Shown here: positions 14,783 to 50,351 of the stretch, one piece after another
Layout: each line of letters opens with the position of its first letter
Numbering within the stretch: the first letter of the stretch is position 1
Origin: a virus
Length of the DNA: 64,000 bases
IMG/VR virus record: IMGVR_UViG_3300014946_000127
Direction: 5' to 3' (one strand)
Notes under the pieces: generated by a model
What the model was told of the DNA's origin: nothing
What the model saw: only the letters and a program-made list of their open reading frames with translations
Databases searched by the model: none
Translations under genes and position numbers: made by a program

Positions 14783-14853
14783 AATTATACTGAGCGCAAC
14801 TGTGGGGTCGAACCACAACTTTATACATGGAGTGTATATGTGCTACCGTTACA
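14783..14853 (-). tRNA. Phage-encoded tRNA, 71 nt, anticodon loop ACTCCAT (TCC if 34-36, giving Gly; C at position 33 is atypical)
   Basis: Minus-strand cloverleaf: acceptor GCGTATC/GTTGCGC (one mismatch), D-arm GTGT-AACGGTA-GCAC, anticodon stem TATAC/GTATA, T-arm TGTGG-TTCGACC-CCACA, discriminator T. No encoded CCA. Confidence 0.5.
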
Positions 14854-14916
14854 CTAGATACGCAGAACACGTGGGTACGAAGCCCCCACGTTTGGCTCTA
14901 TCTACAACCTATTGAA

Positions 14917-19907: not shown

Positions 19908-20345
19908 CTATATAAGGCATTCATCGTTCATTGAAAGATAATCATTTTCAGTTAGAATAATACTGTCTAATAATTTTATATCAAATATATCTAATAGATT
20001 TTTAAGGGAGTGAGTCATTTTTATATCCTCATTACTAGGGTTTTTGTTACCGCTTGGGTGATTATGAACGAATATGACATTAGTAGAGAGGGTATCAATA
20101 GCATATTTGGCAATCAATATTTTGTCAGCTAATGCGCTGCATATTCCTCCTTGAGAGATTTTAGCATACCCGGTTATATTGCAGGCTTTGTTCATCAATA
20201 TAATGAATGCACTTTCGTAAATAAGAATATCTTCATGATAGAACTTTCTTGCGAAATTAGCAGAGTCTATAGAAGAATAAACTTTGACAACTTCAAAATC
20301 TTGTTTTTTTGCTGTTATGCTGTATTCTACTGCTTTCTTTTTCAT
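19908..20345 (-). CDS. RadC-like JAB/MPN domain protein
   Basis: 145 aa. NVIFVHNHPSGNKNPSNEDIKMTHSL contains the HxHPSG...PS..D metalloprotease signature of the RadC (DUF2466) family. Confidence 0.75.
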   Translation of the reverse strand: MKKKAVEYSITAKKQDFEVVKVYSSIDSANFARKFYHEDILIYESAFIILMNKACNITGYAKISQGGICSALADKILIAKYAIDTLSTNVIFVHNHPSGNKNPSNEDIKMTHSLKNLLDIFDIKLLDSIILTENDYLSMNDECLI

Positions 20346-21249: not shown

Positions 21250-22761
21250 TCATAAAAAGTCTTTTAGTAATTCTTCGTCACTAATAAAATCATAGTCAAA
21301 TGGATAAAATGTATTAGCAAGTGCATCCATATAGTCTGGCGAACGTTTGATACGTTTCTTGATTTCTTCTTTCGGTTCAATTATAATCCGTCCATCGCTT
21401 TGGAACTTCCAGTGTGTTTCGGTTGCTTCCTCCATGAGTTTGTCACAAGGGGGAATAGCCGCCCCAAAACCGTTCTTAGGGTTAAGCCAATCACGTAAAG
21501 ACCAATAGCAGTAAGCTCGCATATTGGCAAATTCATATTGTCCGGTAAGGTCATGCAAGCCTTTTGCACTCTCGGAATACTTGCAAGAATAAACATTCCT
21601 ATATCCGAGTTCTTCCAGTCGGGAATATACTCCAGCTCCTTCACCTATTGTATCGATGTACGCTTTGGATTTTTTGTCAGAAAGATATATGATGTGCATT
21701 CCTGCGACATGCATGTGATCCGCTTTTCCAGCAGATTGGTGAACTTCAAATTTAGGGACATAGTTTCCGTATCGAGGGCAAAGTACACTTTCATCTCGTC
21801 CCATACCTGCTACGTCAGAACCGAGTTTGCAGGACTTGACCGGTTTGAACCCATCTTCTTGTAGGCGTTTCCAATTCTCGTTGGCAATCTCTATCCATTC
21901 GTAGGGTATAAGGACATCTTCCGACACCTTTGGGAACATGCCCAGCACCTTGACACGGAAAAGGTCATTAGGGCGGTATAAACCCCCTTCCCACTTAAAA
22001 TCACCTTCTCCTTCATTAAAATCTGCTTTCTGAATGGGAGAACACCAATTTATCACTTTATCTTTAACCCATTCATAATCGACTTGACCGGGAATGACTA
22101 ATTTCTTTTTGACTACATTCTCTGCATTGAGTGAGTTTAACCGGAATTTCGCAAATCGATTGGATTTCATGGCTCGTGCGGCATAACCCGTAGTTATGTT
22201 AGGATTAAACACGATGAGTAAACGGGAATTTCCCTGTAAGTTACCTTCAATAGCATTGTATGTTGCTTCTGAAATACCCGATGCTTCAGTAACGACGAAC
22301 ATTGTATTCACAGCGTGGAACCCAGACCATGCTTCAGTATTGTCATCACCGGCCTTAAACCCCGTCAGGAACCATTCTTCATAATCAGTCTTTATACCCG
22401 AAGACAACAATCTTCCCGGAAGAAAAACTGCATTTCTGTACAAGCGTGAGATTTCCGGGATCATAATATTCTGTACCTGCCTTGCTGTTGGTGCAGTCAT
22501 GGCAATTTTTGTATTCTTGGATAATTTGCCATCTTTCCAACGTGGAGTGAGGTACATAAAACACATAGCAGCACATGCTGCAACGAAGTCCTTACCACGA
22601 GCTGTACCTGATGCAACAGCTGTCATAGGATTGTGCTGGACAGAGGATATGATAGATTGCTGCTCGCTGTCTAAACGAACCTTCAAAACATCACGGCAAA
22701 ACCTATTCCAGTCTTCTATCCATGACTTTAAGTAGCGTATGTCCTTGCGTACATGGCTCAT
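21250..22761 (-). CDS. terL: Terminase large subunit
   Basis: 503 aa. Walker A-like VASGTARGKDF, Walker B-like MFVVTEASGI. C-terminal nuclease region carries the acidic motifs GSDVAGMGRDESV and IDTIGEGAGV typical of the TerL RNase-H-like domain. Confidence 0.8.
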   Translation of the reverse strand: MSHVRKDIRYLKSWIEDWNRFCRDVLKVRLDSEQQSIISSVQHNPMTAVASGTARGKDFVAACAAMCFMYLTPRWKDGKLSKNTKIAMTAPTARQVQNIMIPEISRLYRNAVFLPGRLLSSGIKTDYEEWFLTGFKAGDDNTEAWSGFHAVNTMFVVTEASGISEATYNAIEGNLQGNSRLLIVFNPNITTGYAARAMKSNRFAKFRLNSLNAENVVKKKLVIPGQVDYEWVKDKVINWCSPIQKADFNEGEGDFKWEGGLYRPNDLFRVKVLGMFPKVSEDVLIPYEWIEIANENWKRLQEDGFKPVKSCKLGSDVAGMGRDESVLCPRYGNYVPKFEVHQSAGKADHMHVAGMHIIYLSDKKSKAYIDTIGEGAGVYSRLEELGYRNVYSCKYSESAKGLHDLTGQYEFANMRAYCYWSLRDWLNPKNGFGAAIPPCDKLMEEATETHWKFQSDGRIIIEPKEEIKKRIKRSPDYMDALANTFYPFDYDFISDEELLKDFL

Positions 22762-23123
22762 TCCTCATCATCAGGCAATTCTTGCATCAGTTTCTCAAAT
22801 GGATTGACAGTAACCTCCTGTTCCAGCCTCTCAACATATCCTCTCTCTCGCATTTTGGTCTTACTAAGCCAAATGAGCATTGTGTTGTCTTGTTCTGTCA
22901 AAGCCTTTGAGAACATAACAGTTTCTAATTTATCTTTGAACGCTTCTTCTACTTCCTCCCATTGCTTCCTAAACTCTTCATCTTTCTCTTTCCACTTGTA
23001 TGCAATGGAACGAGATATTCCGGCTGCCTCACACGCTTTCGTAACGTTAAGCAGTCTTGCATCAAGTGCATTCAGAAAAATCTCTTTCTTTTTCTTTACA
23101 GGAATCCTAAACTTCTGTCCCAT
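22758..23123 (-). CDS. terS: Terminase small subunit candidate (HTH)
   Basis: 121 aa directly upstream of and overlapping TerL. N-terminal HTH-like KEIFLNALDARLLNVTKACEAAGISRSIAYKWKEKD. Confidence 0.55.
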   Translation of the reverse strand: MGQKFRIPVKKKKEIFLNALDARLLNVTKACEAAGISRSIAYKWKEKDEEFRKQWEEVEEAFKDKLETVMFSKALTEQDNTMLIWLSKTKMRERGYVERLEQEVTVNPFEKLMQELPDDEE

Positions 23124-23850
23124 CTTTATTTACCTCCAATACGTTATTTACTATTTCCAACATCTTACAAATGCTTAATGCCTGAGCCTTGATTTTATAT
23201 TTCGCTTGGACTTTTGCACTGATTTCATTTAAATGGTGCATGGTTTCCATATCTACAAGAGTAAGATTTCCCAACTCTTTTTCCGAATAACACTCTAGCG
23301 TTTCCATGAGTTTGTCGAATGATGCTTTCTGCGTGTCTATGAACATCAGCGTTACAGGAACAATTTCGTTATTCGGCATTTCTACTGTGTAATTAATATC
23401 CTTTACACTTTCCAATACTTCGTTACTGATGTGTGCGTATTCTTTTAAGGCAACATCAGTTATTTCATCAAGTAGCTGTTTTAATACCTCCGCATCGTCT
23501 TGACCAACAATACTGTTGTGACTGAGTTGTGTCGCTAATAGCCAATCGTTGGAAGTGTTATTCTCATCAATATACATTACGTGAATAGAAGTAAGACCTG
23601 CCATCTTTGCTGCCTGTGTTCTATGATTACCACTGACAACTGTATATGTACCATCATTATGCTTTACACAAAATGGAACAGATGAAAGCTGCCCATCTCT
23701 ACGGATATTATTAACAAGTGCATTAAATGTGTCATTGCTCATAAAATGAGCATTCTTCTTGACAAATTTAATGTCAGAGAGTTGAACTTCCTCAATTTTA
23801 AATTTTTTCATATTACTCCTTTCTAGGTTCGTTACCATATTTCTGTACAA
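23107..23850 (-). CDS. ParB-like nuclease domain protein
   Basis: 247 aa. ...DGQLSSVPFCVKHNDGTYTVVSGNHRTQAAKMAG has the ParB/Sulfiredoxin GxxR motif. Upstream of TerS, as is common in phages. Confidence 0.65.
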   Translation of the reverse strand: MYRNMVTNLERSNMKKFKIEEVQLSDIKFVKKNAHFMSNDTFNALVNNIRRDGQLSSVPFCVKHNDGTYTVVSGNHRTQAAKMAGLTSIHVMYIDENNTSNDWLLATQLSHNSIVGQDDAEVLKQLLDEITDVALKEYAHISNEVLESVKDINYTVEMPNNEIVPVTLMFIDTQKASFDKLMETLECYSEKELGNLTLVDMETMHHLNEISAKVQAKYKIKAQALSICKMLEIVNNVLEVNKDGTEV

Positions 23851-25900
23851 ATGCTTTTAAAATCTCATCTAAATTTCCACGAATACCTGAATCTTGAATA
23901 TAGTGAAGTTTACCAACGCATCTTTCATGTAACTTGAATACTCCCCGATACTTCATACTTACGGGCTTATCAGTAAACACAGAAGTGGCAATTATACCAC
24001 ATTCATGCTTGTATCTTATATTCAATTCCTCTTTAAATTCAGTTGAAAGCACACCTGTAATAAGTAATCTGCTTAGCTTTGGTATAGTATGGTCTATCAC
24101 AAAATCTGACTTCATCCAAACTGCATCCATGCCGTATTTGCTGACTTTTAAGAAATCAAACATACAAGCTCCAAATACGTAATTATCTAAGAACCATAAA
24201 TAGCAGAATGGAGCCGAGCCTAATACTATACCTTTCTTCAAATATATCATACGTAGATAATCTATCTCTGACATAGAAGCACGCATAAAACGAAATTTGC
24301 TATTTTCAGAAATGGAATAATCATCTGGTAAACGTTTGTACTTTAATGGAGTAATAGCACGTTTATTAAAACTGCTATCACCAGTACTACTTACATTGGA
24401 ATAAATATAAGTTCTCTGGTCTTTGAATACCTCTCTGCGTCCCATGAAACCATGTTGCGACAATGCCATGTAATTCACCTGCTCTTCATCTATCTCAGAA
24501 TATTTTGTACGGATTCTTTCTTGCCAACCGAAATCATTCAACAAGAAGCGTTGTAAAGCATTGCTTGTAGCTTTCATACCGGAATGAAACTCATTCTGAT
24601 AAATCAAAATATCATTTTCATTGCAATTAAGTATAGCATCCGAAATATCAGCACAATACAGAACTTCAATGTTCTTTGATTTCAGATTATCAACGAGTTT
24701 CTGATAACGTTCTGTGTATTTCTTCTTGTAGTAATCTAAACGGGACACGAAGTCATCATATAGTGACTTATGGTAAATATCCTGTGAGTTCTTATGCTTT
24801 TTTATGGCATTGAAAAGATGAATAACAGCTACCATTTCGGAAGGATTGTCCGACTGTAAATCCATGAAACTATACTCGTCGTTGAAACGTAGCTCTTTTA
24901 TCTCTCCCTTAATAGCTTTATACATAAGATAGATAAAATACTCTTTCGTATATACCTTTATCTCACGGTTAGTAAGCACTTGTTCTATATCCATGTAGTA
25001 TGAGTTTACCACATGGGCGACATCAAATCTTGAAGCCTCTTTTTTGATGAAAGAAAGCATCCGGTTTGACTTCTTGAACATAGAGCCTACTACCGTAACA
25101 TTATCCGAGTGTTCTGCCGCCCAAAGTAGCGGTTTATGTCTTTGGGGAACTTTGGAATAGTCAATATGAAACACCTCAAGACACTTATCAATTGTGGAGA
25201 GTTGCTTATACTCTTCTATATTTTCATGCAGGTAGGCATACTCTACAAATGAATACATGAATTTGATTGTCTCCAATACTTTATCAAAGTTCCATGAACT
25301 GTTGAAGATTCTGAACTCTGCCGTGCCAATCTTGGCAATGGAACATAAATTGAGCCAATACCTGATATGTCCCCTGTCTGAACCATTGTTGAATACTTTT
25401 AGTAGGTTGTCGATATTATCAGCTTCTAGCACACGTTTCACCACATCATATGGAGGGCTTGGCACGAGGTATTTTGTTTCCCACCACTCGGCTATATCGA
25501 ATATCCGCTTGATTGGATATGCTGTATAGTAGGAAAGGACAAACATACGCTTGATAACATTCAAATCCATATCTTTGATATACAGATGTGCGTCAAAGCC
25601 TTCATTCCACATGAGGTAACTTCCTGCATCTTTCATTGTTTTGATGAAGCCTTTCAACTCCTGTAAGTCTTCCACACAATAATGGTATGGACGAGTGTTT
25701 ATCTCGCCACCAAATTGACCGTGGTGTGTGACAGCCGAACCGTCCGAGTTATTCATCATGGTTAGCTTGTTGTCCGTCCATTTATAACCGACTGGAAGGG
25801 AAATGCATTGTTTGTCTCCATCGGCAAACTCCAATTCCATGCCAAACGTGCGGTTGGCAATGTAATCAATCCACGGCTTATCTATATTCATGTTCTGCAT
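23813..25900 (-). CDS. Amidoligase-family (glutamine-synthetase-like fold) enzyme with a long uncharacterised C-terminal extension
   Basis: 695 aa. N-terminus RTFGMELEFADGD matches the conserved R-x-F-G-x-E-x-E start of Amidoligase_2-type enzymes. Confidence 0.55.
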   Translation of the reverse strand: MQNMNIDKPWIDYIANRTFGMELEFADGDKQCISLPVGYKWTDNKLTMMNNSDGSAVTHHGQFGGEINTRPYHYCVEDLQELKGFIKTMKDAGSYLMWNEGFDAHLYIKDMDLNVIKRMFVLSYYTAYPIKRIFDIAEWWETKYLVPSPPYDVVKRVLEADNIDNLLKVFNNGSDRGHIRYWLNLCSIAKIGTAEFRIFNSSWNFDKVLETIKFMYSFVEYAYLHENIEEYKQLSTIDKCLEVFHIDYSKVPQRHKPLLWAAEHSDNVTVVGSMFKKSNRMLSFIKKEASRFDVAHVVNSYYMDIEQVLTNREIKVYTKEYFIYLMYKAIKGEIKELRFNDEYSFMDLQSDNPSEMVAVIHLFNAIKKHKNSQDIYHKSLYDDFVSRLDYYKKKYTERYQKLVDNLKSKNIEVLYCADISDAILNCNENDILIYQNEFHSGMKATSNALQRFLLNDFGWQERIRTKYSEIDEEQVNYMALSQHGFMGRREVFKDQRTYIYSNVSSTGDSSFNKRAITPLKYKRLPDDYSISENSKFRFMRASMSEIDYLRMIYLKKGIVLGSAPFCYLWFLDNYVFGACMFDFLKVSKYGMDAVWMKSDFVIDHTIPKLSRLLITGVLSTEFKEELNIRYKHECGIIATSVFTDKPVSMKYRGVFKLHERCVGKLHYIQDSGIRGNLDEILKAFVQKYGNEPRKE

Positions 25901-26753
25901 ACCTCAACTTAACTAAGGATTTATAATTGGGAATGAATGTAACAATGTCTCCGATACAATAATCAGAACTGTCACCGTATACTTTCATTATCGTGTATTC
26001 GCTTGAGCTGTTAGAAAAGTCCAAATGGTTATCAAGGCAACGACATTCCCCCATATCAGCCATTGAATAACCGCAATCAAGTAGTATTTGATTCCGCTCA
26101 GGGTAAATGCCGATAACTTCTGTATGCAACTCGATACCATTTAACCCTAACTTTTCATCATCGCTGTTATATGGGATTGTGCCAAATAGCATATATTCTC
26201 CAATGCGCACGTCGCTTATGAATTTAGGTAGATCTTCATTCTGTCCTAACCAAAAACTACCACCTAAACTGATAGATTCAATGTAACTATTCAGCTTAGA
26301 CCATATTTCACACAATCGTTGCATATTCGGCCTGTTTCCATTTAGGCAACCGGAAGTAATCATACCATAAGCGTGAGAATTATCATCGCATTTACGAACC
26401 GTATTAGCAATCTGTCTTGCTTCAAATAGGCTTACTCCCTCTCTGTTGTCGAAAGCATTGATGGGAATATATATTTTTTTAATACCCTTATTTACTACAC
26501 AATCCATTGCTTCATACGCAGTAACAGTTACTGTCCCTTTCTGATTATGAATTGCTTTTCCAATAGAGTAGCACACGCTATCTTCAAAGTGAAGCGAGAA
26601 AATGTCATTATCAACCCTATAATGGATATGTCTCCAAATATCCTCATAGAAGTCTTTGAACATGAGAGAGACAGGGACATTCACAAGCGTTTCCGCTTTC
26701 TTGATGTTCTTTATAACATTATCAGTATATATGATTACTTTCATAGCTCCCAT
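25878..26753 (-). CDS. Hypothetical enzyme (TIM-barrel or PLP-dependent-like?), part of the modification cluster
   Basis: 291 aa. Overlaps the amidoligase start by 23 nt (operon). No confident motif. Confidence 0.35.
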   Translation of the reverse strand: MGAMKVIIYTDNVIKNIKKAETLVNVPVSLMFKDFYEDIWRHIHYRVDNDIFSLHFEDSVCYSIGKAIHNQKGTVTVTAYEAMDCVVNKGIKKIYIPINAFDNREGVSLFEARQIANTVRKCDDNSHAYGMITSGCLNGNRPNMQRLCEIWSKLNSYIESISLGGSFWLGQNEDLPKFISDVRIGEYMLFGTIPYNSDDEKLGLNGIELHTEVIGIYPERNQILLDCGYSMADMGECRCLDNHLDFSNSSSEYTIMKVYGDSSDYCIGDIVTFIPNYKSLVKLRYAEHEYR

Positions 26754-27640
26754 TTTAAAATGATACGTTCAGCTCCTTTGTATTTCGTATCTCGTTTGAA
26801 TGAGAACCCGACATTGGTGAAACTTTTTATGCTTGCTTCATTTTTAGGAGAGGTCATTGCAAATATCTCTTGTGCACCATTAGAAACCAATTTTGCGATA
26901 TTCGCATTGAGAAGGAGGTACTGGAATCCATTTCCTCTGTAACCAGAACAGACAAAACATTTGTCGACGTATGCCGTACCGTATTCCGTAAAATAAGCAA
27001 GCGAGTAGGCTACAAGAGAACCGTCTAGCAATAAGCCATAACTGCAACCGGATTGCAAACATTTAGTTATATCCTGTGGTTCTGATGCAAAGCAGGTTTC
27101 AGGATTCGAGAGCATGGTTTGTTCCATTGCTTCAATTTCAGAAATGTCAGACATGGACAGCGTTTTGATTTCCATCTTACACTCAATGCTTCCTATATCA
27201 GTGGGAAACAAAGGATCATATCTGTCTATCCATGCTTTAGATAGGAATACATCAATATCTGTTTGAGGTAGTAATTTTCTTCTGTAATTTTCAAAAATAC
27301 CTAATACAAACTCTTTATGCTTAGTTAGTTGTTCATTCTTCAAAGGGCACTTACCACTACGAAAAACAAAGCCTTTATTCACTGATTTTATCCACAATGG
27401 ATAGGTACGACACATGATAGGTTTATAGCCGTTATCACATGATTTGCAGTTTTTAGCGATACATTTTACCTTTTTACCGCCAAAATAATCATTATCTATA
27501 ATTTGTAAATGGGATATTTCCTGTTCGTGTCCAGCAAATTCATGGGGTAGAATAACAATATGTCCGTCCGATCCGAACGAACAACATTTCCAACCGCAAC
27601 CGGAGTTTTCGCATGCTCTTATTAGTCCTTTATCGTACAT
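26741..27640 (-). CDS. Cys-rich N-terminal domain + C-terminal GNAT-fold acyl/aminoacyl-transferase-like protein
   Basis: 299 aa. N-term CENSGCGWKCC...CIAKNCKSCDNGYKPIMC. C-term ...VCSGYRGNGFQYLLLNANIAKL resembles the GNAT R/Q-x-x-G-x-G/A motif A. Overlaps the upstream gene by 13 nt. Confidence 0.5.
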   Translation of the reverse strand: MYDKGLIRACENSGCGWKCCSFGSDGHIVILPHEFAGHEQEISHLQIIDNDYFGGKKVKCIAKNCKSCDNGYKPIMCRTYPLWIKSVNKGFVFRSGKCPLKNEQLTKHKEFVLGIFENYRRKLLPQTDIDVFLSKAWIDRYDPLFPTDIGSIECKMEIKTLSMSDISEIEAMEQTMLSNPETCFASEPQDITKCLQSGCSYGLLLDGSLVAYSLAYFTEYGTAYVDKCFVCSGYRGNGFQYLLLNANIAKLVSNGAQEIFAMTSPKNEASIKSFTNVGFSFKRDTKYKGAERIILKWEL

Positions 27641-27862: not shown

Positions 27863-28018
27863 AGGTAGCAGCAGGACTCGAACCTGCAATGCTTGGCAAT
27901 CTTCTACATCTTCCGTGTAACACTGGATTGGTTCGTTTTACAATGATGCCCAGTTTTCATAACATCGTAACCAAGTCTACTAAGAGTTGTCAGCGTCTAC
28001 CAATTCCGCCATACTACC
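27863..28018 (-). tRNA. Aberrant class-II-like tRNA-like gene (156 nt) with tRNA-Leu-like 5' acceptor/D-arm and a ~66-nt insertion between D-arm and anticodon arm
   Basis: 5' GGTAGTA-TG-GCGGAATTGGTAGACGC (D-arm as in bacterial tRNA-Leu) ... anticodon-arm-like TTACA-CGGAAGA-TGTAG, 16-nt variable region, T-arm GCAGG-TTCGAGT-CCTGC, acceptor 3' TGCTACC pairing 7/7 with the 5' end (one G-U). Confidence 0.4.
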
Positions 28019-28137
28019 AAATTTGCGTGACTTTCCACGCTGTCAGATTGTTTGCAGTACCAACTAAATGCAAGGAATCTAACCTTGTCGCTTACTTTAC
28101 ACAACCTCAATCAACGAGCCGAGTTTAACGGCATTAG

Positions 28138-28207
28138 AGCGGAAACAGGGAATCGAACCCCACTCTTTGGCTGGAATGCCAACGCTCTACCGATGAGCTA
28201 TTTCCGC
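28138..28207 (-). tRNA. tRNA-like gene, 70 nt, with an apparent 6-nt anticodon loop ATTCCA (Trp/Gly-type; noncanonical)
   Basis: GCGGAAA-TA-GCTC-ATCGGTA-GAGC-G-TTGGC-ATTCCA-GCCAA-AGAG-TGGGG-TTCGATT-CCCTG-TTTCCGC-T. Perfect acceptor, D and T arms; the anticodon loop is one nt short. Confidence 0.55.
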
Positions 28208-28432
28208 AAATGCCTGTCTATTCCAAGCTGTCAACATTATGAACCGCCATGTAGTCACCGTCAACATTCACATGATTTTGTGAAGATCCACCTTGATAGA
28301 TACTCTCTGGGACTTATTTCGGATTTACCCTTCCCCTTTCTATCTACTACTCTATCGGCTTTCCTATCTTCAGACAGACCCGACACCCGTCTTTAATTCG
28401 GATAGAGTGGTGCGTTCATTGATACAAGACTG

Positions 28433-28505
28433 TGGGAACTCAAGGATTCGAACCTTGTTCTTCGGATTTTCAGTCCGACGCATAGACCAACTTTGCTAAA
28501 TTCCC
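28433..28505 (-). tRNA. tRNA-Phe (anticodon GAA)
   Basis: GGGAATT-TA-GCAA...TGC-G-TCGGA-CTGAAAA-TCCGA-AGAA-CAAGG-TTCGAAT-CCTTG-AGTTCCC-A; 73 nt. U33, GAA, A37. Confidence 0.75.
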
Positions 28506-28565: not shown

Positions 28566-28988
28566 CTATTGATGGTTGGCTAATAATTCCGGATTATCGT
28601 AAATGTTTCCTAATATTTTAACATCACTTTCTGTATCTGTATGCAAATCACTAATTGCATAAAATCCAGCATCTTCAAAATCATTTTCTGTAACATTGAA
28701 AATAAACCCACCTTGATGCCATTCTACATAACCTTTCAAATAGTGCTCTTGTTCTCCATGACAGCCATAAGAAAAGAATAACCATTCTACAATATCCCCT
28801 TCGTAAATTTCTTTTCCGTTCTTATCTAACAAGCCGGTGAACTGACCTACGGTATCTATATCTACTTCTATCGAAGACAGATCAATTGAATCAATATCGT
28901 TGATGTAGTCTTCATCAGCAAGGAATCCATATACCCATTTTTTGTTATCAATTCGCTTTCCTCTAAATTTAATAGTTCTCATACTCAA
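28566..28988 (-). CDS. YopX-family phage protein
   Basis: 140 aa. IKFRGKRIDNKKWVYG...GQFTGLLDKNGKEIYEGDIV matches the YopX signature. Confidence 0.65.
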   Translation of the reverse strand: MSMRTIKFRGKRIDNKKWVYGFLADEDYINDIDSIDLSSIEVDIDTVGQFTGLLDKNGKEIYEGDIVEWLFFSYGCHGEQEHYLKGYVEWHQGGFIFNVTENDFEDAGFYAISDLHTDTESDVKILGNIYDNPELLANHQ

Positions 28989-29389
28989 AACAAACTTGCT
29001 TGTTCATATTTAGGTTCTTTCTTCTCAACTACTCCGAACTCTGTTATTTCAATACCAGTTTTTTCAGTAAGCCACTTTGCCAAAATATGACGATGGCAAA
29101 AATCACCCGGTTTTTCGTAACAACAGAGAGCGACATCTTTGCCTTCACTTAACATTTCAATTTGTTTCACGACTTGGTTCGCATCTTGGCTTGCCAATAT
29201 TCTGTCGTAAAGTTTTAGGTATTCATCGTGGGAACAAGGTCCACTTACCATATAACGAGTCGGGCAAACATTCAGCATTTGTGGAATACCAGCTATAAAT
29301 CTGGGTTTTCCGATTGCTACGCAAATCATATTAACTTCCGCCTCTTTCAGTTTTCGGATATTACCGAAATACGATGTAAAAATCTTCAT
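28985..29389 (-). CDS. DUF488-like protein
   Basis: Probable start MKIFTSYFGN. C-terminus ...VALCCYEKPGDFCHRHILAKWL resembles the conserved DUF488 end (LLC-E...CHR). Confidence 0.5.
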   Translation of the reverse strand: MKIFTSYFGNIRKLKEAEVNMICVAIGKPRFIAGIPQMLNVCPTRYMVSGPCSHDEYLKLYDRILASQDANQVVKQIEMLSEGKDVALCCYEKPGDFCHRHILAKWLTEKTGIEITEFGVVEKKEPKYEQASLF

Positions 29390-29420
29390 TTTTTTGTTCT
29401 TTTTACGGTGTAAATATATA

Positions 29421-29447
29421 AAAAGTATATGAAATTCATGCACTTTT
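29421..29447. promoter_or_regulatory. Palindromic motif copy 3
   Basis: AAAAGTATATGAAATTCATGCACTTTT immediately upstream of the DUF488-like gene start. Confidence 0.45.
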
Positions 29448-33964: not shown

Positions 33965-34726
33965 ATGAACGAGGAAATAACAAAGTTATTGCTTCAATGC
34001 GACACGTTGAAAGCCCGTTTGTTGGGGCTGCGCCCATTACCACCGGATGCCCTGCAAAAGATAGAGAATGCGTTTGCCATTGAATACACCTATGAAAGCA
34101 ACCGGATCGAGGGAAATACGCTCACACTGCAAGAAACGGAGTTAGTAGTGAACGAGGGAGTTACTATCGCCGGAAAGTCAATGCGGGAACACCTTGAAGC
34201 GATTAACCACGTTGAAGCGATAGACTACATAAAGGACTTTGCAAAGGGAGGTATGGAAATATCGGAGCGCACAATCAAGGAAATACACGCTATTGTGCTA
34301 CATGGCATAGATAGAGATAATGCCGGACGTTATCGGTGCGTGCCTGTTATGATTTCGGGAAGTACACATGTTCCTCCACAGCCGTATTTGATACAACCAC
34401 AAATGGAAGCTTTTATGACAAGGTTTGCCGAAATGGAGGAACAAGGCATTCACCCGGTGCTCATTGCGGCTTACCTTCATGATGAGTTGGTACGCATACA
34501 CCCGTTTATAGACGGGAACGGGCGCACATCTCGGCTTCTGATGAATCTATACTTACTCCGCAACGGTTATACGCTGGTAAATCTCAAAGGCAGCAACGAG
34601 GACAAAATAAGCTATTACAAGGCACTGGAAGCCTCTCATACGGAGAACAATCCGGCAGAGTTCCAAAAGGTCGTTATACGGGCTGAAATAGAATCTTTAA
34701 GCCGGTATCTCTCGATTGTAGGATAG
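33965..34726 (+). CDS. fic: Fic/Doc family protein (AMPylase-type)
   Basis: 253 aa. HPFIDGNGRTSRLLMNL is the canonical Fic motif HPFx(D/E)GNGRxxR. Confidence 0.8.
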   Translation: MNEEITKLLLQCDTLKARLLGLRPLPPDALQKIENAFAIEYTYESNRIEGNTLTLQETELVVNEGVTIAGKSMREHLEAINHVEAIDYIKDFAKGGMEISERTIKEIHAIVLHGIDRDNAGRYRCVPVMISGSTHVPPQPYLIQPQMEAFMTRFAEMEEQGIHPVLIAAYLHDELVRIHPFIDGNGRTSRLLMNLYLLRNGYTLVNLKGSNEDKISYYKALEASHTENNPAEFQKVVIRAEIESLSRYLSIVG

Positions 34727-38674: not shown

Positions 38675-41311
38675 TTATCGGAAATGACTATAATATTCAA
38701 TAGATTTTTCTACTATTTTTAGTGCTTCATTACTTGATTTATCGAGTATGCGCCATTGCTCATAATATTTATGTCCGAGACCACCTTCCATTCCTGTCTC
38801 ATTATGTATTTCTTCCCAACGTTTTTTTCCAAGAATACGTTTCGCATCTTCCGGCCTTTCTTTTGCAAAAATCATACGTTCCGTATTAACCTGTATTTCC
38901 GCAGTAAGACCATTTGTGGTTCTTATGTTTACGATGTTTCCACTATATCCCATGAATGATTCTGGTTTTTGCCTTTTAAGGCGTAAGAAGCCTTCCGTTT
39001 TGTACAGTTCTTCTAACACATCTTCTATTCGGGACTTCGGAACGATTATGGTTGTTCTTACAGAATCTTTAATATCGTATGGAGTTATACCTTCTGTGAT
39101 GACTTTTCTTGTGATAGAAGTTGTACTCTTGAAATTAATAGGCGTAACATAACCACCATTTTTTATTGCGATCCGTTCTGCTATGGACTGTACTTCATCT
39201 CCCACTGATGATGCTCGTTTTACAATTTCCGAAATGGAACTTTCAACTGTTATTTTCTGATAAACGGATTTATTATCACGCAAAAAGTATGGTAAAGTAT
39301 TACGTTTTTTTGCTGTGCTGATGCGCTCTTGATTATCTAATACCCACTTTTTGAAAGCGTCCGGTACGTCTTTAACTTCGTTCACGCTTGCTGTCGTGGC
39401 TTCACTCCGACCGTCCCATTCCCAAAATTCTTCTTCGGTTTTTAGAATGGGTATCTTGTAACATCGACAATTGCTACCCCAAAAGCATTTTCCGTTCCTG
39501 CGGATATACATGATATGGTTGCGTTCCAGTGTCAAATCATAGACAAGACCATCATAATGCTGTATCTCTTTATTAAATACCGAAGACGTGACAGAATAGC
39601 ATTCACGTATAGAGTAACAATCATAGTTTGACTTTATAATTGGACCATTCGCTTTGTGTGATACTCCTGCTTTATTTATAGAAAAAGAAGGCCTATGTCC
39701 TGATTTCAGTATTAGTTCGGATAAGTCTCCTGCCATGCGTTCAGATGTGGTGAAGTATATGATTTCATCTTTATCTGACTTGAATTCATTACCGTGATTC
39801 CCTATGAATGATCTGCAAGGACGCTTATAACCGTCGCAAAGGACAAAGGCATCAAGAAAAATCCTTATCTGCCTCTTTGAAGCATTCTTTATAACATACG
39901 GGACAAATTTGTTTATACACCGTCCAAAAATCTTCAAATAGTTGCGTATGGTAGTGTTATAAAATACGACCTTTTGTTTTTCAAGATGTGGTTCAAATCC
40001 CATACGCTTGATGCAATCAACTATTTTATCTCTTGCCGTTTCTCCCTCTTGCTGGGATATTACGACGCCTGAATTGCTCATTGTACTACCGTCAGAAAGC
40101 CAATACCCCATAAATTCGCAGAACAAATCAAATGGGATTATCAAATCATCAATTTGGTAAAATTCGACATCGCCTGATTCATACTCGCAACCTCTATAAA
40201 ATCTGCCTTTACCTTTCGTGTATTCTTTCGCTTGGCAATTCTTAATTTTTCCGTCATTCTTATTCAAATACACCATATTGTGTTCTGGGGTTACGAGACA
40301 ATCAAGAGAGCGATTGTAGAAGTGTACCATTTCTCCATAATATGAGAAACATTGTCTATCGATAAATTCAACCCATTCTATATTACGTGTATTTGGATTT
40401 AACGATAATATCAAATCATCATCTAAAACGTCTTTGAATAACTTCCAACCTCTATTCGTCAGAACTTCGCTATCATCTGAATAACAAAGGGGATGCCAAC
40501 CGGTCCATTGGAAGTCTTTCGGGTATTTTCCAGCTAGTATATCGCAAATGTCTTGGAAAGGCTTTCCGTTGCAAGTATGGTTGTTGCTTAATTTGATTTC
40601 ATATCCCACCACGAAGTCCATCTGTTGCCAGCGTAGGTTTTCTGCTTGGCGGTATGCCATATTGATTTCGGAAGCAGCCAAACGGATAGAACGATACTCG
40701 CAATCCATTGCCCGTGATGCTTTTCCGAACCTTTCCTTGTAATCTTTTTGTAGTTGCGGGAAATCGAGCAGATATTTGGAGATTTGCTTGCTTAATGTAA
40801 TTGCACTCGTACCTTTTTGAATGGCACATGATATAGCTTCTTCAAGTTCCTGTTTATACAGAGTCGATTGATTCCACAACTTATCTGATATGGTAAATCC
40901 TTTATCCTTACGTTGCTGAAACGCTTTCAATGCATCATTATTGGGCTGGTATAGGATTTCGTATTTCTCCTTTCCTATGGTTGCGCCATAAGTTTGCAAT
41001 ACTTTGTTGGCAAGAAGATCTTGAACTTCGTTGCTGTTTTTCCATTCTTCAGAAGTGCCACTATATATTACAGCTCCGATGTCCTCAACGAACCTTTCTT
41101 GTAAGTCTCTTATCCGTTTTCTTGTTTGGGGATAATCCGACCACATAAACGGCCTATCACTATCAATGGTAAAATCGGTAATTCCGACTATTTTAGCCGC
41201 CTCTAAATTCAAATCCTCGTATATGGATTCCACAAGCATGACGTATTTGGCGAGCCGTTTATTCAGCTCGCCGTACTTGCGTTTCTGATTTGGAGTTTTC
41301 GGCTTTGCCAT
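38675..41311 (-). CDS. Head morphogenesis protein (SPP1 gp7 / Mu F-like) interrupted by an intein and carrying a C-terminal RelA/SpoT-like nucleotidyltransferase (toxSAS-like) domain
   Basis: 878 aa. The extein junction reconstitutes ...GWHPL|CRCYKIP (the MuF HPxCRC motif). The C-terminal 180 aa carry DSVRTTIIV, GYSGNIVNI, EIQVNTERM and HKYYE, which resemble the RelA_SpoT synthetase motifs DxxGxRVV, GYRSLH, EIQIRTxxM and HKxxYK. Confidence 0.7.
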   Translation of the reverse strand: MAKPKTPNQKRKYGELNKRLAKYVMLVESIYEDLNLEAAKIVGITDFTIDSDRPFMWSDYPQTRKRIRDLQERFVEDIGAVIYSGTSEEWKNSNEVQDLLANKVLQTYGATIGKEKYEILYQPNNDALKAFQQRKDKGFTISDKLWNQSTLYKQELEEAISCAIQKGTSAITLSKQISKYLLDFPQLQKDYKERFGKASRAMDCEYRSIRLAASEINMAYRQAENLRWQQMDFVVGYEIKLSNNHTCNGKPFQDICDILAGKYPKDFQWTGWHPLCYSDDSEVLTNRGWKLFKDVLDDDLILSLNPNTRNIEWVEFIDRQCFSYYGEMVHFYNRSLDCLVTPEHNMVYLNKNDGKIKNCQAKEYTKGKGRFYRGCEYESGDVEFYQIDDLIIPFDLFCEFMGYWLSDGSTMSNSGVVISQQEGETARDKIVDCIKRMGFEPHLEKQKVVFYNTTIRNYLKIFGRCINKFVPYVIKNASKRQIRIFLDAFVLCDGYKRPCRSFIGNHGNEFKSDKDEIIYFTTSERMAGDLSELILKSGHRPSFSINKAGVSHKANGPIIKSNYDCYSIRECYSVTSSVFNKEIQHYDGLVYDLTLERNHIMYIRRNGKCFWGSNCRCYKIPILKTEEEFWEWDGRSEATTASVNEVKDVPDAFKKWVLDNQERISTAKKRNTLPYFLRDNKSVYQKITVESSISEIVKRASSVGDEVQSIAERIAIKNGGYVTPINFKSTTSITRKVITEGITPYDIKDSVRTTIIVPKSRIEDVLEELYKTEGFLRLKRQKPESFMGYSGNIVNIRTTNGLTAEIQVNTERMIFAKERPEDAKRILGKKRWEEIHNETGMEGGLGHKYYEQWRILDKSSNEALKIVEKSIEYYSHFR
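39470..40486 (-). other. Intein (339 aa) with LAGLIDADG homing-endonuclease domain inside the MuF gene
   Basis: Begins CYSDDSEVLT (block A Cys) and ends ...KCFWGSN followed by Cys. LAGLIDADG-like motifs FMGYWLSDGS and FLDAFVLCDGYK; block F-like VYDLTLERNH. Confidence 0.65.
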
Positions 41312-47693: not shown

Positions 47694-48230
47694 TCATTTT
47701 AAATCGAATATCTTGCTTGAATCCCTAATAGAATCAATAGACATCTTGGCACTCAATTGCTTCATAAATTCAGCAAAATCCATCGCCCGATTCCAACTAG
47801 ACCATCTATGAGTAATCTCTACTAGTTCAAAAGCATTTAGTAATACCAATTTTTCGTTTTTCTCTCTCAGGTCATTTACAGCATTTCTTACTCTGTGATA
47901 AAGCTTGCAATTATATCTTTTTGCGTTATACGGTTCCGCACCTTCTCTTGGTTCAATACTACGATATTTAACCGAAAACGAAGGAAGTTTATCTTTGCAC
48001 ATTGCATTATATACATCACTCTCCACCGGGCCATATGGCATAGCATAGAAATTATCGAATATATCCAAAAGGTCATCGCCTCTATCTTTCTTAGGAGCAG
48101 CAGCCAAAAACAGCAGTTTCATGGCTGTAAGTTTAGGAAACGGCTTGCCCTTAATCGTTTCATGATTATCCCGCCACTCCTCAAAAAGGTGGAGCATATA
48201 ATCAAATGCCTTTATTTTATCTACTTCCAT
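47694..48230 (-). CDS. Panacea-domain (DUF4065, SocA/PanA antitoxin-like) protein
   Basis: 178 aa. KLTAMKLLFLAAAP...FDNFYAMPYGPVESDVY fits the DUF4065 K-L-x-K-L-L-Y ... G-P-V signature. Confidence 0.55.
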   Translation of the reverse strand: MEVDKIKAFDYMLHLFEEWRDNHETIKGKPFPKLTAMKLLFLAAAPKKDRGDDLLDIFDNFYAMPYGPVESDVYNAMCKDKLPSFSVKYRSIEPREGAEPYNAKRYNCKLYHRVRNAVNDLREKNEKLVLLNAFELVEITHRWSSWNRAMDFAEFMKQLSAKMSIDSIRDSSKIFDLK

Positions 48231-49817: not shown

Positions 49818-50351
49818 TTATTCCTCCTTTATAATTTCTTTCATGAAACAAATCCAGTGCGTATTAGAACGTTTTCCGGATATATGCCCGAATATTGGTT
49901 TTTCAGGTGTGAGTTTGAGAACTTCCGACACTTTGATGTCGGTCTCGTTCCATTTGAAAATCAAAAATCCTCCGGGTTTCAGGACTCGAAAACATTCTTT
50001 AAATCCCTTTGCCAGCATATCACGCCAATCTGAATACAGAGCTCCGTATTTAATTTGTTGGTAGCCTGTTGGCGATGCTTTTTCGTTCAAACTTCCGTAC
50101 ATATCTGCCATCTTTGACTTTCCAGCATTCCTTAATAAGTGAGGCGGATCGAAAACTACCATCGAAAAAGATTTATCCTCGTAGGGCATATTTGTAAAGT
50201 CGGCTTGTATGTCGGGATTTACTTCAAATGATCTACCATCGCATAAATGAGTAGATACCTTTCGAATGTCTTGAAAAAGAACTCTTTCGTCATGTTTGTC
50301 GAAGTAGAACATCTTTCCCCCACAACAGGCATCTAATATCGTTTTTCTCAT
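49818..50351 (-). CDS. DNA methyltransferase (small N6-adenine/N4-cytosine type, orphan)
   Basis: 177 aa. Motif I-like ILDACCGGKMF and motif IV VVFDPPHL (the (D/N/S)PP(Y/F/H) catalytic motif). No adjacent restriction enzyme. Confidence 0.6.
   Translation of the reverse strand: MRKTILDACCGGKMFYFDKHDERVLFQDIRKVSTHLCDGRSFEVNPDIQADFTNMPYEDKSFSMVVFDPPHLLRNAGKSKMADMYGSLNEKASPTGYQQIKYGALYSDWRDMLAKGFKECFRVLKPGGFLIFKWNETDIKVSEVLKLTPEKPIFGHISGKRSNTHWICFMKEIIKEE

What the first reader, a model, noticed from the sequence alone, without database searches (positions are those of the whole stretch)
23107..27640. ParB-like + amidoligase + GNAT-fold gene cluster abutting the phage tRNA cluster: candidate DNA/protein hypermodification system
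Four co-oriented, overlapping genes: a ParB-like nuclease-fold protein; a 695-aa protein whose N-terminus (RTFGMELEF) matches the amidoligase family (GS-like fold enzymes that ligate amino acids/amines); a 291-aa unknown enzyme; and a 299-aa protein with a Cys-rich N-terminus and a GNAT-fold C-terminus. They sit between terminase and the tRNA cluster. Amidoligase/GNAT neighbourhoods have been proposed (Iyer-Aravind-type comparative analyses) to build peptide or amine tags on proteins or bases, and phage thymidine hypermodification pathways use amidoligase-like and ParB-like/kinase components. GNAT/Fem-like transferases can use aminoacyl-tRNA as donor, and noncanonical tRNA-like genes lie immediately downstream. 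No thymidylate-synthase-like hydroxymethylase is visible in the window, so the substrate (DNA base versus protein) is open. This is a candidate for an undescribed modification pathway.
Basis: partly seen in the sequence, partly recalled or inferred. Interest (0 to 1): 0.7.

Follow-up and report, generated by a model that had tools for sequence, protein, structure and literature searches.

The report
Phage tRNA-Gly-linked DNA modification module
A gut-phage gene cluster next to the DNA-packaging genes combines a relative of the phage Mu Mom enzyme with its own unusual glycine tRNA, which suggests it attaches glycine from charged tRNA to the phage DNA and then tailors it, a chemistry so far shown for only one enzyme.

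Summary
Two things were missed.

1. The 695-aa protein has three domains: a glutamine-synthetase-like amidoligase, a Dam-like adenine-methylase fold that has lost both methylase motifs, and a C-terminal "GNAT-phage-like" domain (PF22559). The closest solved structure to that last domain is Mom, the only enzyme known to move glycine from Gly-tRNA onto DNA adenine.
2. The conserved module extends upstream, to a DUF488 gene and a tRNA slot.

In 200 related loci from viral contigs and from prophages of many phyla:
- The same ParB subfamily lies directly downstream in 171 of 186 loci where it could be assessed.
- 42 loci carry a tRNA just upstream, and 41 of these include a tRNA-Gly or a Gly-like tRNA.
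- Several of these tRNAs have 6-nt anticodon loops or lack U33, yet keep the GlyRS identity set. The window's "odd" tRNA (28137-28207) is one of them.

Best explanation (about 0.5): a ParB-assisted, Gly-tRNA-dependent modification of DNA, probably at adenine. In this lineage the amidoligase domain, an alanine-racemase-like PLP enzyme and a CoA-type GNAT tailor the product. No chemistry has been shown.

The protein families already exist in Pfam. The tRNA link was not found in the papers I could search. I rate it a new variant of a known kind, with high interest.

The parts
28985..29443 (-). DUF488 (DUF488-N3a subclade) gene. It is the first gene of the conserved module.
   Evidence: Pfam PF22751 E 3.9e-10 and PF04343 E 3.9e-6. 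Present upstream of the GNAT-phage-like gene in 75 of 80 close loci, in 46 of 60 diverse viral loci and in 35 of 80 prophage loci. One family member is fused to it.
28566..28988 (-). YopX-family gene. It is a variable insertion and probably not part of the module.
   Evidence: Pfam YopX E 7e-18. Found somewhere in 49 of 80 close loci (in some of them far from the module) and absent from the 71%-identity lineages.
28432..28505 (-). Canonical tRNA-Phe(GAA), a variable passenger of the tRNA slot.
   Evidence: ARAGORN. Rfam tRNA 69.7 bits. Replaced by Cys or Ser, or absent, in sister loci.
28137..28207 (-). Conserved 'odd' tRNA, derived from tRNA-Gly, with the 6-nt anticodon loop AUUCCA. It is the proposed dedicated glycyl donor.
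   Evidence: ARAGORN 'tRNA-??? (tc)'. Rfam 53 bits with one loop position missing. It carries G1-C72, C2-G71, G3-C70, U73, C35 and C36. It is present directly upstream of the small GNAT gene in 62 of the 66 sampled loci at 78% gC identity or more, including L073 where stems changed in a compensatory way but the loop did not. The other four lack the upstream region or had no call.
27863..28018 (-). Third tRNA-like element with an insertion of about 85 nt. It is variable and of unknown role.
   Evidence: Rfam tRNA 31.7 bits, E 2e-4. Most sister loci have only about 200 nt between the odd tRNA and gA, which is too short to hold it.
26741..27640 (-). gA: a Cys-rich N-terminal domain (residues 1-160) fused to a CoA-type GNAT (residues 161-299).
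   Evidence: Acetyltransf_1 E 3.6e-8 on the C-terminal half, which has a 'YRGNGF' CoA loop; no family for the N-terminal half. The small GNAT is present in 77 of 80 close loci. The Cys-rich domain is found only at 88% gC identity or more. Elsewhere it occurs as a free-standing protein of about 140 aa.
25878..26753 (-). gB: a compact fold-type III PLP enzyme of the alanine-racemase, D-Ser-dehydratase and D-Thr-aldolase family.
25091..25900 (-). gC residues 1-270: amidoligase domain with a glutamine-synthetase-like fold.
24401..25063 (-). gC residues about 280-500: Dam-like adenine-methylase fold with degenerate motifs.
23816..24358 (-). gC residues 515-695: GNAT-phage-like domain, the proposed aminoacyl-tRNA:DNA transferase.
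23107..23850 (-). gD: ParB/Srx-like protein, the obligate partner of the GNAT-phage-like gene.
   Evidence: The same subfamily lies directly downstream in actinophages and in FP_Brigit, in 100 of 106 viral loci and in 71 of 80 prophage loci.
21250..23123 (-). TerS and TerL (context). The module abuts the packaging genes.
   Evidence: phrog_4044 E 1e-12 and phrog_2 E 2e-25. The same order is seen.
14792..14863 (-). Second phage tRNA-Gly(UCC), with C33 in place of the near-universal U33. It may be related to the module.
   Evidence: ARAGORN. Sequence and cloverleaf read. An identical copy occurs in L183.

Best explanation
The cluster is the tailoring-rich version of a widespread phage module: DUF488, a tRNA slot, a [Dam-like + GNAT-phage-like] protein and ParB, placed just before the terminase genes. 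I propose that it modifies phage DNA after replication, using glycine carried on tRNA.

Proposed steps (all inferred, none shown):
1. Host GlyRS charges the phage's own Gly-type tRNA. That tRNA keeps the GlyRS identity set but has a 6-nt anticodon loop, so it is probably a poor decoder and a dedicated donor.
2. The Dam-like domain of gC, which has lost both methylase motifs, binds DNA and flips a base, most likely adenine.
3. The Mom-like GNAT domain transfers the glycyl group from the tRNA 3' end to that base.
4. gD (ParB) acts as the activator or loader on double-stranded DNA.
5. In this lineage the adduct is then tailored. The amidoligase domain makes an ATP-dependent amide bond to it, or deamidates it as Dop does. 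gB supplies or reshapes an amino acid: racemase, aldolase or dehydratase chemistry on a free alpha-amine. The CoA-type GNAT of gA caps a free amine.
6. The DUF488 role is unknown. It may act on the tRNA or on a nucleic-acid end.

The likely benefit is protection of packaged DNA from host nucleases.
For: - Architecture: all 104 long members of the family have PF22559. Of these, 98 matched a Dam-like Pfam domain, 15 an amidoligase and one DUF488.
- tRNA link in viral loci: 31 of 60 loci with at least 1.5 kb of upstream sequence have an upstream tRNA on the same strand, and 30 of those 31 include a Gly or Gly-like tRNA. These fall in at least 6 separate clusters at 60% identity.
- tRNA link in prophages, sampled one genome per species: 11 loci have an upstream tRNA, all Gly-type, and no other tRNA occurs anywhere in the 80 loci.
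- Mycobacteriophage GodPhather has tRNA-Gly directly upstream of its Dam-like-GNAT gene. In FP_Brigit the slot holds tRNA-Lys, 3 nt after DUF488.
- The Gly-assigned and odd slot tRNAs nearly all start GCG and end CGC-U (the rest start TGCG or were cut by the locus edge). Several lineages independently show 6-nt loops (AUUCCA, ACACCA, AAACCA, GUUCCA), A33 or C33, ACC anticodons, or atypical D and T loops, while C35, C36 and A37 are kept.
- ParB precedent: a phage ParB is required for a thymine dioxygenase to act on dsDNA (PMC13229309).
- Tailoring precedents on DNA: a PLP decarboxylase and a GNAT acting on DNA-borne amino acids (PMC8989533), and the ATP-dependent amide ligase CmoY (PMC12783734).
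- gB is alanine-racemase-like and keeps its PLP lysine.
Against: - No chemistry has been measured for any family member.
- Mom's essential R111 has no clear counterpart in gC, and gC lacks Mom's HTH-like insertion.
- Many family members, mostly the short class, have no adjacent tRNA (29 of 60 viral loci and 69 of 80 prophage loci). A phage tRNA is therefore not obligatory, and host tRNA would have to serve.
- The DNA target and the adenine target are inferred only from the Dam-like fold, the ParB partner and the position next to the terminase.
- The roles of the amidoligase, PLP, small GNAT, Cys-rich and DUF488 parts are guesses. An N6-glycyl or rearranged carbamoylmethyl adduct offers no carboxylate for a GS-type ligase to activate.
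Confidence: 0.5

Rival explanations
1. The tRNA is the substrate, not the donor. The module would modify or inactivate tRNA-Gly, or its aminoacyl end. For example, the Dam-like domain would grip an adenosine (A37 or A76) and the GNAT would acylate it, as TacT-type toxins acetylate Gly-tRNA(Gly). DUF488 would act on the RNA end. The phage tRNA would then be a resistant replacement or a decoy.
For: - There is tight DUF488-tRNA-GNAT adjacency.
- GNATs that act on tRNA exist: TacT, AtaT and TmcA are cited in PMC13219725.
- From memory, the DUF488 clade has been linked to chemistry at RNA termini (unverified).
- The altered anticodon loops could reflect escape from, or targeting by, an enzyme.
Against: - The obligate ParB partner and the DNA-methylase fold point to DNA.
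- The position at the head of the packaging genes matches late, DNA-directed enzymes.
- The GNAT lacks a CoA loop, so it would need another acyl donor.
- Most family members have no tRNA gene to act on.
Confidence: 0.15
2. The module is a DNA-end or packaging-linked processing system. ParB would nick or bind near pac or cos. DUF488 would process a terminal phosphate or sugar. The GNAT and amidoligase would cap the genome ends with an amino acid or peptide, rather than modifying bases throughout the genome.
For: - The module always abuts TerS and TerL where these are seen.
- From memory, the 2023 Rhodanese-phosphatase superfamily paper predicted 'DNA-end processing' for DUF488-clade systems. 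That paper is not held, so this is unverified.
- GS-like ligases such as PafA tag macromolecules.
Against: - A Dam-like base-flipping fold is not needed for end chemistry.
- In GodPhather and Sting the pair lies far from the terminase: no terminase is annotated in the regions fetched, and in Sting the portal gene is about 3.6 kb downstream.
- tRNA-dependent transfer would fit this model equally well, so it is partly a sub-case of the main model.
Confidence: 0.12
3. It is an ordinary methylase plus acetyltransferase. gC would methylate adenine with SAM and/or acylate from acyl-CoA. The neighbouring tRNAs would only serve phage codon usage.
For: - Sting gp28 and Jollymon gp29 are annotated as methyltransferases.
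- FP_Brigit keeps near-canonical motifs (EPCAGAF, NPPTY) and encodes a SAM synthetase nearby.
- D53, the ribose-binding position of motif II, is nearly invariant in the short class.
Against: - Motif IV is FPPTY in most members and QNEF in gC. Motif I is CSGxF or NSYYM.
- The GNAT domain has no CoA loop.
- A codon-usage role cannot explain why 41 of 42 loci with a slot tRNA include a Gly type, or why several have non-decoding loops.
Confidence: 0.08
4. It is a protein-tagging, peptide-tagging or small-metabolite pathway, as proposed for amidoligase and GNAT neighbourhoods in earlier comparative work. An example would be modification of a capsid or host protein, or synthesis of a peptide-like compound.
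For: - Amidoligase_2, GNAT and racemase-type PLP enzymes are typical of peptide and metabolite pathways.
- Prophage amidoligases are elsewhere linked with gamma-glutamyl cyclotransferase.
Against: - The amidoligase, PLP and small GNAT parts occur in only a minority of the family. The invariant core is Dam-like, GNAT and ParB.
- No carrier protein, peptidase or target gene is conserved alongside.
Confidence: 0.07

Closest known systems
Phage Mu Mom (Pfam PF25680): Gly-tRNA(Gly)-dependent N6-adenine modification of dsDNA (PMC13219725)
   Same: - It has a GNAT fold and is the best structural match to the gC C-terminal domain.
- Read from the two sequences, neither has a CoA Gly-loop.
- It has a Ser at the N-terminus of helix 3.
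- It is a phage-encoded enzyme.
- The glycine tRNA link is shown for Mom and inferred here from gene adjacency.
   Different: - It belongs to a different sequence family.
- Mom is a stand-alone dimer with an HTH-like insertion for DNA binding. Here that insertion is absent, and the GNAT is fused to a Dam-like domain and paired with ParB and DUF488.
- Mom uses host tRNA. This module often brings its own, sometimes non-decoding, tRNA.
- This lineage adds amidoligase, PLP and CoA-GNAT tailoring.
Non-proteinogenic tRNA-Gly and FemXAB in Staphylococcus peptidoglycan synthesis (from my own knowledge)
   Same: Dedicated Gly-tRNA isoacceptors with atypical D and T loops feed a GNAT-fold aminoacyl transferase outside translation. 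Some slot tRNAs here lack G18G19 and the T-loop consensus.
   Different: The acceptor there is a lipid-linked peptide, not a nucleic acid. No Fem-family Pfam match was returned for any cluster protein. Here the anticodon loop itself is altered.
Thymidine hypermodification pathways (5-HMUDK, AADT/aGPT-Pplase, PLP decarboxylase, GNAT; PMC8989533)
   Same: An amino acid is appended to a DNA base after replication and then sculpted by PLP enzymes and an acetyltransferase. Amidoligase-type genes of unknown role are seen in such clusters.
   Different: Neither a kinase nor an AADT matched in the cluster proteins, and the larger window ORFs scanned showed no hydroxymethylase or TET/JBP. The donor there is a free amino acid and the handle is 5-hmdU. 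The PLP enzyme here is fold-type III and racemase-like.
ParB-dependent phage DNA modifiers (5mYOX/ParB, PMC13229309) and the CmoX/CmoY/ParBc system (PMC12783734)
   Same: [quoted passage not shown]
- An ATP-dependent amide ligase acts on a DNA-borne group.
- A methylase-fold protein is used for non-methyl chemistry.
   Different: The catalytic partners differ (a dioxygenase, a C5-carboxymethyltransferase and an Asn-synthetase-type ligase). Those systems do not involve tRNA.
Pfam GNAT-phage-like, DAM-like-phage1/2 and DUF488-N3a families (probably from Burroughs and Aravind 2023, NAR Genom Bioinform lqad029; from memory, paper not held)
   Same: gC and the DUF488 gene are members by Pfam score.
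   Different: I could not read what was predicted. My recollection is 'DNA-end processing'. No paper on these families turned up in my searches, so I saw no report of a tRNA-Gly link or a structural tie to Mom.

Membership tests
Amidoligase_2 (PF12224; GS-like amidoligases) | Profile match above the curated cut-off | tested here: met
   29.8 bits against a cut-off of 22, E 7e-7, residues 64-218. 15 of 104 family members also match, best E 2.4e-19.
Amidoligase_2 (PF12224; GS-like amidoligases) | Glutamine-synthetase-like fold with conserved acidic, Arg and His active-site residues | tested here: met
Mom family (PF25680) | Sequence membership in the Mom profile | tested here: not met
   gC matches PF22559, not PF25680. 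Mom matches only PF25680. hhalign of the family profile against Mom gave E 0.26.
Mom family (PF25680) | GNAT core closest to Mom in structure | tested here: met
Mom family (PF25680) | HTH-like insertion (Mom residues about 175-209), essential for activity | tested here: not met
   In the model, strands 655-661 and 664-670 are joined directly and no insertion of about 35 residues is present. DNA binding presumably falls to the Dam-like domain.
Mom family (PF25680) | Use of Gly-tRNA(Gly) as donor and dsDNA adenine as acceptor | not testable with these tools
   The only support is indirect: tRNA-Gly gene adjacency and the Dam-like fusion.
Canonical acyl-CoA GNATs | Q/R-x-x-G-x-G/A pyrophosphate-binding loop between strand 4 and helix 3 | tested here: not met
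   The gC loop is 'IDHTIPKLSRL', and no Gly is conserved there in the family. gA does have 'YRGNGF' and matches Acetyltransf_1.
Dam / alpha-class N6-adenine DNA methyltransferases | Methylase fold | tested here: met
Dam / alpha-class N6-adenine DNA methyltransferases | Motif I FxGxG (SAM loop) and motif IV (D/N/S)PP(Y/F/W) | tested here: not met
   gC has 'VVNSYYM' and 'YQNEF' at the aligned positions. The short class has CSGxF and FPPTY. The alignment to Dam is weak in sequence terms.
ParB/Srx superfamily | ParB N-terminal domain with the GxxR-type arginine motif | tested here: met
   PF02195 E 1.2e-5 (0.6 bits under the cut-off), phrog_7405 E 1e-54 and several ParB PHROGs, TIGR00180 E 3e-8, and 'SGNHRTQAA' is present. 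NTP binding was not tested.
Fold-type III PLP enzymes (alanine-racemase family) | TIM-barrel plus beta-domain fold with a PLP-binding lysine | tested here: met
Thymidine hypermodification clusters | 5-hmdU DNA kinase, aGPT-Pplase/AADT, and a dUMP hydroxymethylase or TET/JBP | tested here: not met
   No such Pfam match in the four proteins or in 20 larger ORFs between 32 and 63 kb. Small ORFs were not all scanned.
FemXAB aminoacyl transferases | Fem-family profile match | tested here: not met
   No Fem-family match was returned for gA or gC at E up to 1.
Bacterial tRNA-Gly (for the odd tRNA 28137-28207) | GlyRS identity set: G1:C72, C2:G71, G3:C70, U73, C35, C36 (from my own knowledge) | tested here: met
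   Read directly from the sequence. The same set is seen in the slot tRNAs of other lineages. Charging was not tested.
Bacterial tRNA-Gly (for the odd tRNA 28137-28207) | Canonical 7-nt anticodon loop with U33 | tested here: not met
   A 5-bp stem UUGGC/GCCAA closes the 6-nt loop AUUCCA. The loop is conserved across 26 sequence variants.

The most novel reading that the evidence does not exclude
Phages of many bacterial phyla carry a second, Mom-independent family of aminoacyl-tRNA:DNA transferases, built from a Dam-like base-flipping scaffold fused to a GNAT and assisted by ParB. Some encode dedicated, non-decoding tRNA-Gly (occasionally tRNA-Lys) as private amino-acid carriers. In abundant human-gut Bacteroidales phages the glycyl adduct would then be extended by an amidoligase, a racemase-like PLP enzyme and an acetyltransferase into a peptide-like base hypermodification that has not been described.
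Probability: 0.35. Interest if true: 0.92.

Novelty: new variant of a known kind. Interest (0 to 1): 0.82.

Why it matters
tRNA-dependent modification of DNA has been shown for one enzyme only, Mom, in 2026. If this module works as proposed, several things follow.

- That chemistry is widespread. The family has 421 clusters at 50% identity. It occurs in prophages of Bacteroidota, Bacillota, Pseudomonadota, Planctomycetota, Nitrospirota, Actinomycetota and others, and in at least 191 IMG/VR stretches for this lineage alone.
- It comes with its own tRNA. That would be a viral case of non-proteinogenic tRNA, and it would explain some 'broken' phage tRNAs.
- An unknown base would be present in common human-gut phages. 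This bears on restriction and CRISPR evasion, on nanopore and SMRT base-calling of viromes, and on phage engineering.
- It would supply modular enzymes for sequence-directed attachment of amino acids to DNA: a base-flipping scaffold, a transferase, an amide ligase and a ParB activator.
- It is directly testable, because cultured carriers exist: mycobacteriophages Jeon, GodPhather and D12, Gordonia phages Sting and Clawz, and Faecalibacterium phage FP_Brigit.

Tried and rejected
Searches that found nothing:
- Megablast of the region against GenBank phages gave only a 166-bp match, so there is no close isolate.
- Sequence searches of gC against the PDB found nothing, with either the single sequence or the profile.
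- gB has no tblastn match in isolated phages.
- The Cys-rich domain of gA has no Pfam or PDB relative, only phage homologues. I suspected a YkgJ-like CxxCxxCC domain, but no profile hit supports that.
- A literature search for the Pfam names found nothing.

Failed or wasted calls:
- hhalign of the GNAT profile against Mom, and of the Dam-like profile against E. coli Dam, gave non-significant scores. I used them only to locate motif positions.
- One search was wasted. I queried with a Mom sequence recalled from memory, which was wrong. I then fetched the real one.
- One search failed because the alignment was too diverse for pattern design. I replaced it with a degenerate DNA pattern for PVSMKYRG.
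- The two Aravind-lab papers most likely to describe these families (PMC3268129 and lqad029/PMC10034599) are not held. What they claim is cited from memory only.

Readings considered and rejected:
- tRNA as a prophage attachment site. The tRNAs are full-length, internal, on the same strand and sit between DUF488 and the GNAT gene.
- tRNA clustering at an early/late boundary. That cannot explain the Gly specificity.
- A thymidine pathway. No component of one is present.

Full report
**1. The observation**

The window carries four overlapping minus-strand genes at the stated coordinates, immediately upstream of TerS (22758-23123) and TerL (21250-22761). I call them gA (26741-27640, 299 aa), gB (25878-26753, 291 aa), gC (23813-25900, 695 aa) and gD (23107-23850, 247 aa).

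- gD is ParB-like: PF02195 E 1.2e-5, phrog_7405 E 1e-54, TIGR00180 E 3e-8.
- The gC N-terminus is Amidoligase_2, at 29.8 bits against a cut-off of 22.
- The gA C-terminal half is a GNAT: Acetyltransf_1, with a 'YRGNGF' CoA-type loop. Its N-terminal half is Cys-rich and has no family match.

The 'unknown' gB is a compact fold-type III PLP enzyme:
- NCBIfam ornithine racemase E 8.7e-9.
- K33, R183 and Y253 are invariant in 26 homologues.
- The model has pLDDT 91.5.

**2.

Pfam also finds a C-terminal 'GNAT-phage-like' domain (PF22559, E 1.5e-24) and a weak 'DAM-like-phage1' match in the middle. A model built on 27 homologues (pLDDT 87.7) has three domains.

Mom was shown in 2026 to transfer glycine from Gly-tRNA(Gly) to N6 of adenine in dsDNA (PMC13219725). 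However, gC is not a sequence member of the Mom family (PF25680), and it lacks Mom's HTH-like insertion.

**3. The family and its fixed partners**

- The GNAT-phage-like domain defines 421 clusters at 50% identity.
- All 104 long members scanned carry PF22559. Of these, 86 also match DAM-like-phage1, 12 match DAM-like-phage2, 15 match Amidoligase_2, and one is fused to DUF488-N3a.
- In isolated phages the short form (Dam-like plus GNAT, about 430-480 aa) is followed at once by the same ParB subfamily as gD. Examples are Gordonia phage Sting gp28/gp29, Mycobacterium phage GodPhather gp72/gp73 and Faecalibacterium phage FP_Brigit gp21/gp22. In FP_Brigit, TerS and TerL come next.
- In 80 close IMG/VR loci the order DUF488, small GNAT, PLP, gC, ParB, TerS is kept wherever the contig reaches.
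- In the lineages at 71-78% gC identity, DUF488 directly abuts the small GNAT, except for the odd tRNA in L073. So YopX, the variable tRNAs and the Cys-rich domain are later additions in the window's lineage.
- In 120 diverse viral loci found with a DNA pattern for PVSMKYRG, ParB lies downstream in 100 of 106 assessable loci and DUF488 upstream in 46 of 60.
- In 80 prophage loci drawn from one genome per species, spanning many phyla, ParB is downstream in 71 and DUF488 upstream in 35.

**4. The tRNA slot**

This is the main new result. The window's 'odd' tRNA (28137-28207) scores 53 bits as a tRNA with one anticodon-loop position missing. It has the stem UUGGC/GCCAA around a 6-nt loop AUUCCA.

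It is present directly upstream of the small GNAT gene in 62 of the 66 sampled loci at 78% gC identity or more. The other four lack the upstream region or had no call. Its neighbour varies between Phe, Cys, Ser and nothing. In the most divergent copy (L073) the acceptor, D and T stems changed in a compensatory way, yet 'C-AUUCCA-G' is unchanged.

It carries G1:C72, C2:G71, G3:C70, U73, C35 and C36. From my own knowledge, this is the bacterial GlyRS identity set.

Beyond this lineage:
- 31 of 60 viral loci with at least 1.5 kb of upstream sequence have a same-strand tRNA within 3 kb upstream. Of those 31, 30 include a tRNA-Gly (UCC, CCC or ACC) or such a Gly-like tRNA. The tRNA counts are Gly 20, odd 17, Cys 4, Phe 3, Arg 2, Asn 2, Met 2, Lys 1 and Ile 1.
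- These loci fall in at least six separate clusters at 60% identity. Only L165 has tRNAs without a Gly type.
- In the independent prophage set, 11 loci have an upstream tRNA. All are Gly-type, and no other tRNA occurs anywhere in the 80 loci. Ten of the 14 amidoligase-variant loci have one.
- GodPhather has tRNA-Gly(UCC) directly upstream of gp72.
- In FP_Brigit the slot holds tRNA-Lys(CUU), which starts 3 nt after the DUF488 stop codon.

Many slot tRNAs look unfit for decoding but fit for charging:
- Independent 6-nt loops: AUUCCA, ACACCA, AAACCA and GUUCCA.
- A33 in one lineage, and C33 in the window's second tRNA-Gly at 14792-14863.
- ACC anticodons combined with a D loop lacking GG and a T loop reading UGCGGCU.
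- In nearly all of these, G1C2G3 and U73 are kept, and C35, C36 and A37 stay in the loop.

If Gly made up 10% of phage tRNAs, seven or more of eight independent lineages having a Gly type would have a probability of about 7e-7. This is my own rough binomial estimate, not a calibrated test.

**5. Mechanism proposed**

All steps below are inferred.
- Host GlyRS charges the private tRNA.
- The Dam-like domain of gC binds DNA and flips a base, probably adenine.
- The Mom-like GNAT domain moves the glycyl group onto it.
- gD acts as an activator on dsDNA. The precedent is a phage ParB that is required for a thymine dioxygenase to act on dsDNA (PMC13229309).
- In the window lineage the adduct is tailored. 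Precedents are a PLP decarboxylase and a GNAT that act on amino acids already attached to DNA (PMC8989533), and the ATP-dependent amide ligase CmoY, which acts on a DNA-borne carboxyl group in clusters that also encode ParBc proteins (PMC12783734).
- A plausible order is this: gB makes or reshapes an amino acid, or acts on the free alpha-amine of the glycyl adduct. The amidoligase joins an activated carboxylate to that amine, or works as a Dop-like deamidase on a rearranged carbamoylmethyl group. The CoA-type GNAT of gA caps the terminal amine.
- The roles of DUF488 and of the Cys-rich domain are open.

**6. Weak points**

- No chemistry is known for any member of the family.
- Mom's structural lead over other GNATs is small, and Foldseek ranked Mom 49th.
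- Mom's essential R111 has no clear counterpart in gC.
- Most short-class members have no adjacent tRNA.
- DNA, and adenine in particular, is inferred only from the fold, the partner and the gene position.
- Rival readings are kept in the report: tRNA as the substrate, DNA-end processing, a plain methylase plus acetyltransferase, and protein or metabolite tagging.

**7. Comparison with what is known, and novelty**

The cluster is a member of Amidoligase_2, GNAT-phage-like, ParB_N, DUF488-N3a and the alanine-racemase fold family. It is not a member of the Mom family, the Fem family, canonical Dam, or the thymidine hypermodification pathways. For the last, there is no kinase or AADT among the cluster proteins, and no hydroxymethylase or TET/JBP among the 20 larger ORFs scanned.

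The Pfam names imply an earlier comparative-genomic description. I believe this is Burroughs and Aravind 2023, but I could not read it. The Mom paper does not discuss this family. My literature searches found no report of a link between these families and tRNA-Gly. I therefore rate it a new variant of a known kind, amino-acid hypermodification of phage DNA, with Mom as the closest working analogue. Interest is high, because the prediction is specific, the module is widespread, and cultured phages exist to test it.

Noticed in passing
window 27863-28018 (-): A third tRNA-like element with a normal acceptor, D arm and T arm, but about 85 extra nucleotides where the anticodon and variable region should be (Rfam tRNA 31.7 bits). 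By spacing, it seems to be absent from most sister loci.
   Followed up: partly
window 14792-14863 (-): A second phage tRNA-Gly(UCC), with anticodon loop ACUCCAU, so C33 replaces the near-universal U33. It lies among the structural genes, and an identical copy is in L183. Both Gly-type tRNAs of this phage therefore have non-canonical anticodon loops.
   Followed up: partly
window 41415-42827 (-) and 38675-41311 (-): An SPP1-type portal gene, followed by an 878-aa ORF with no family match, lies about 19 kb upstream of the terminase genes. In relatives such as L007 the portal follows TerL directly. This may be a rearranged genome, or a second element in the window.
   Followed up: no
window 54833-55792 (-): A PAPS-reductase-like gene (PF01507, E 6e-21). 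The same family recurs near the module in L004, L005, L006 and L007. It may be another nucleic-acid-modifying function of these phages.
   Followed up: no
window 33965-34726 (+), 47694-48230 (-), 49818-50351 (-), 62739-63497 (+): A Fic/DOC gene on the opposite strand, a SocA/Panacea antitoxin-like gene, a short 177-aa methyltransferase-like ORF, and a CI-type S24 repressor. The phage is temperate and carries several conflict-type accessory genes.
   Followed up: no
L022, L024, L026, L070, L073, L080-L088, between gC and ParB: In several sister loci, 0.6-1.7 kb of extra sequence is inserted between gC and the ParB gene. In the window those two genes overlap. The content of the insert was not examined.
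   Followed up: no
L010 (Faecalibacterium phage FP_Brigit) 1515-2693 and 4284-4360: FP_Brigit encodes a SAM synthetase a few genes upstream. Its Dam-like domain keeps near-canonical motifs (EPCAGAF, NPPTY), and its slot tRNA is Lys(CUU) rather than Gly. This member may use a different amino acid, or may still methylate.
   Followed up: partly
L108, L111, L131, L132, L173, L208 (IMG/VR loci): Pairs of tandem tRNA-Gly genes lie between DUF488 and the amidoligase-type gC. One copy often has an ACC anticodon (rare in bacteria, from my own knowledge), a D loop without GG and a T loop reading UGCGGCU.
   Followed up: partly
window 19908-20345 (-): Read by eye, this looks like a RadC/JAB-like ORF (HNHPSG motif) just downstream of TerL. 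Pfam finds RadC at a similar position in L007 and L008.
   Followed up: no
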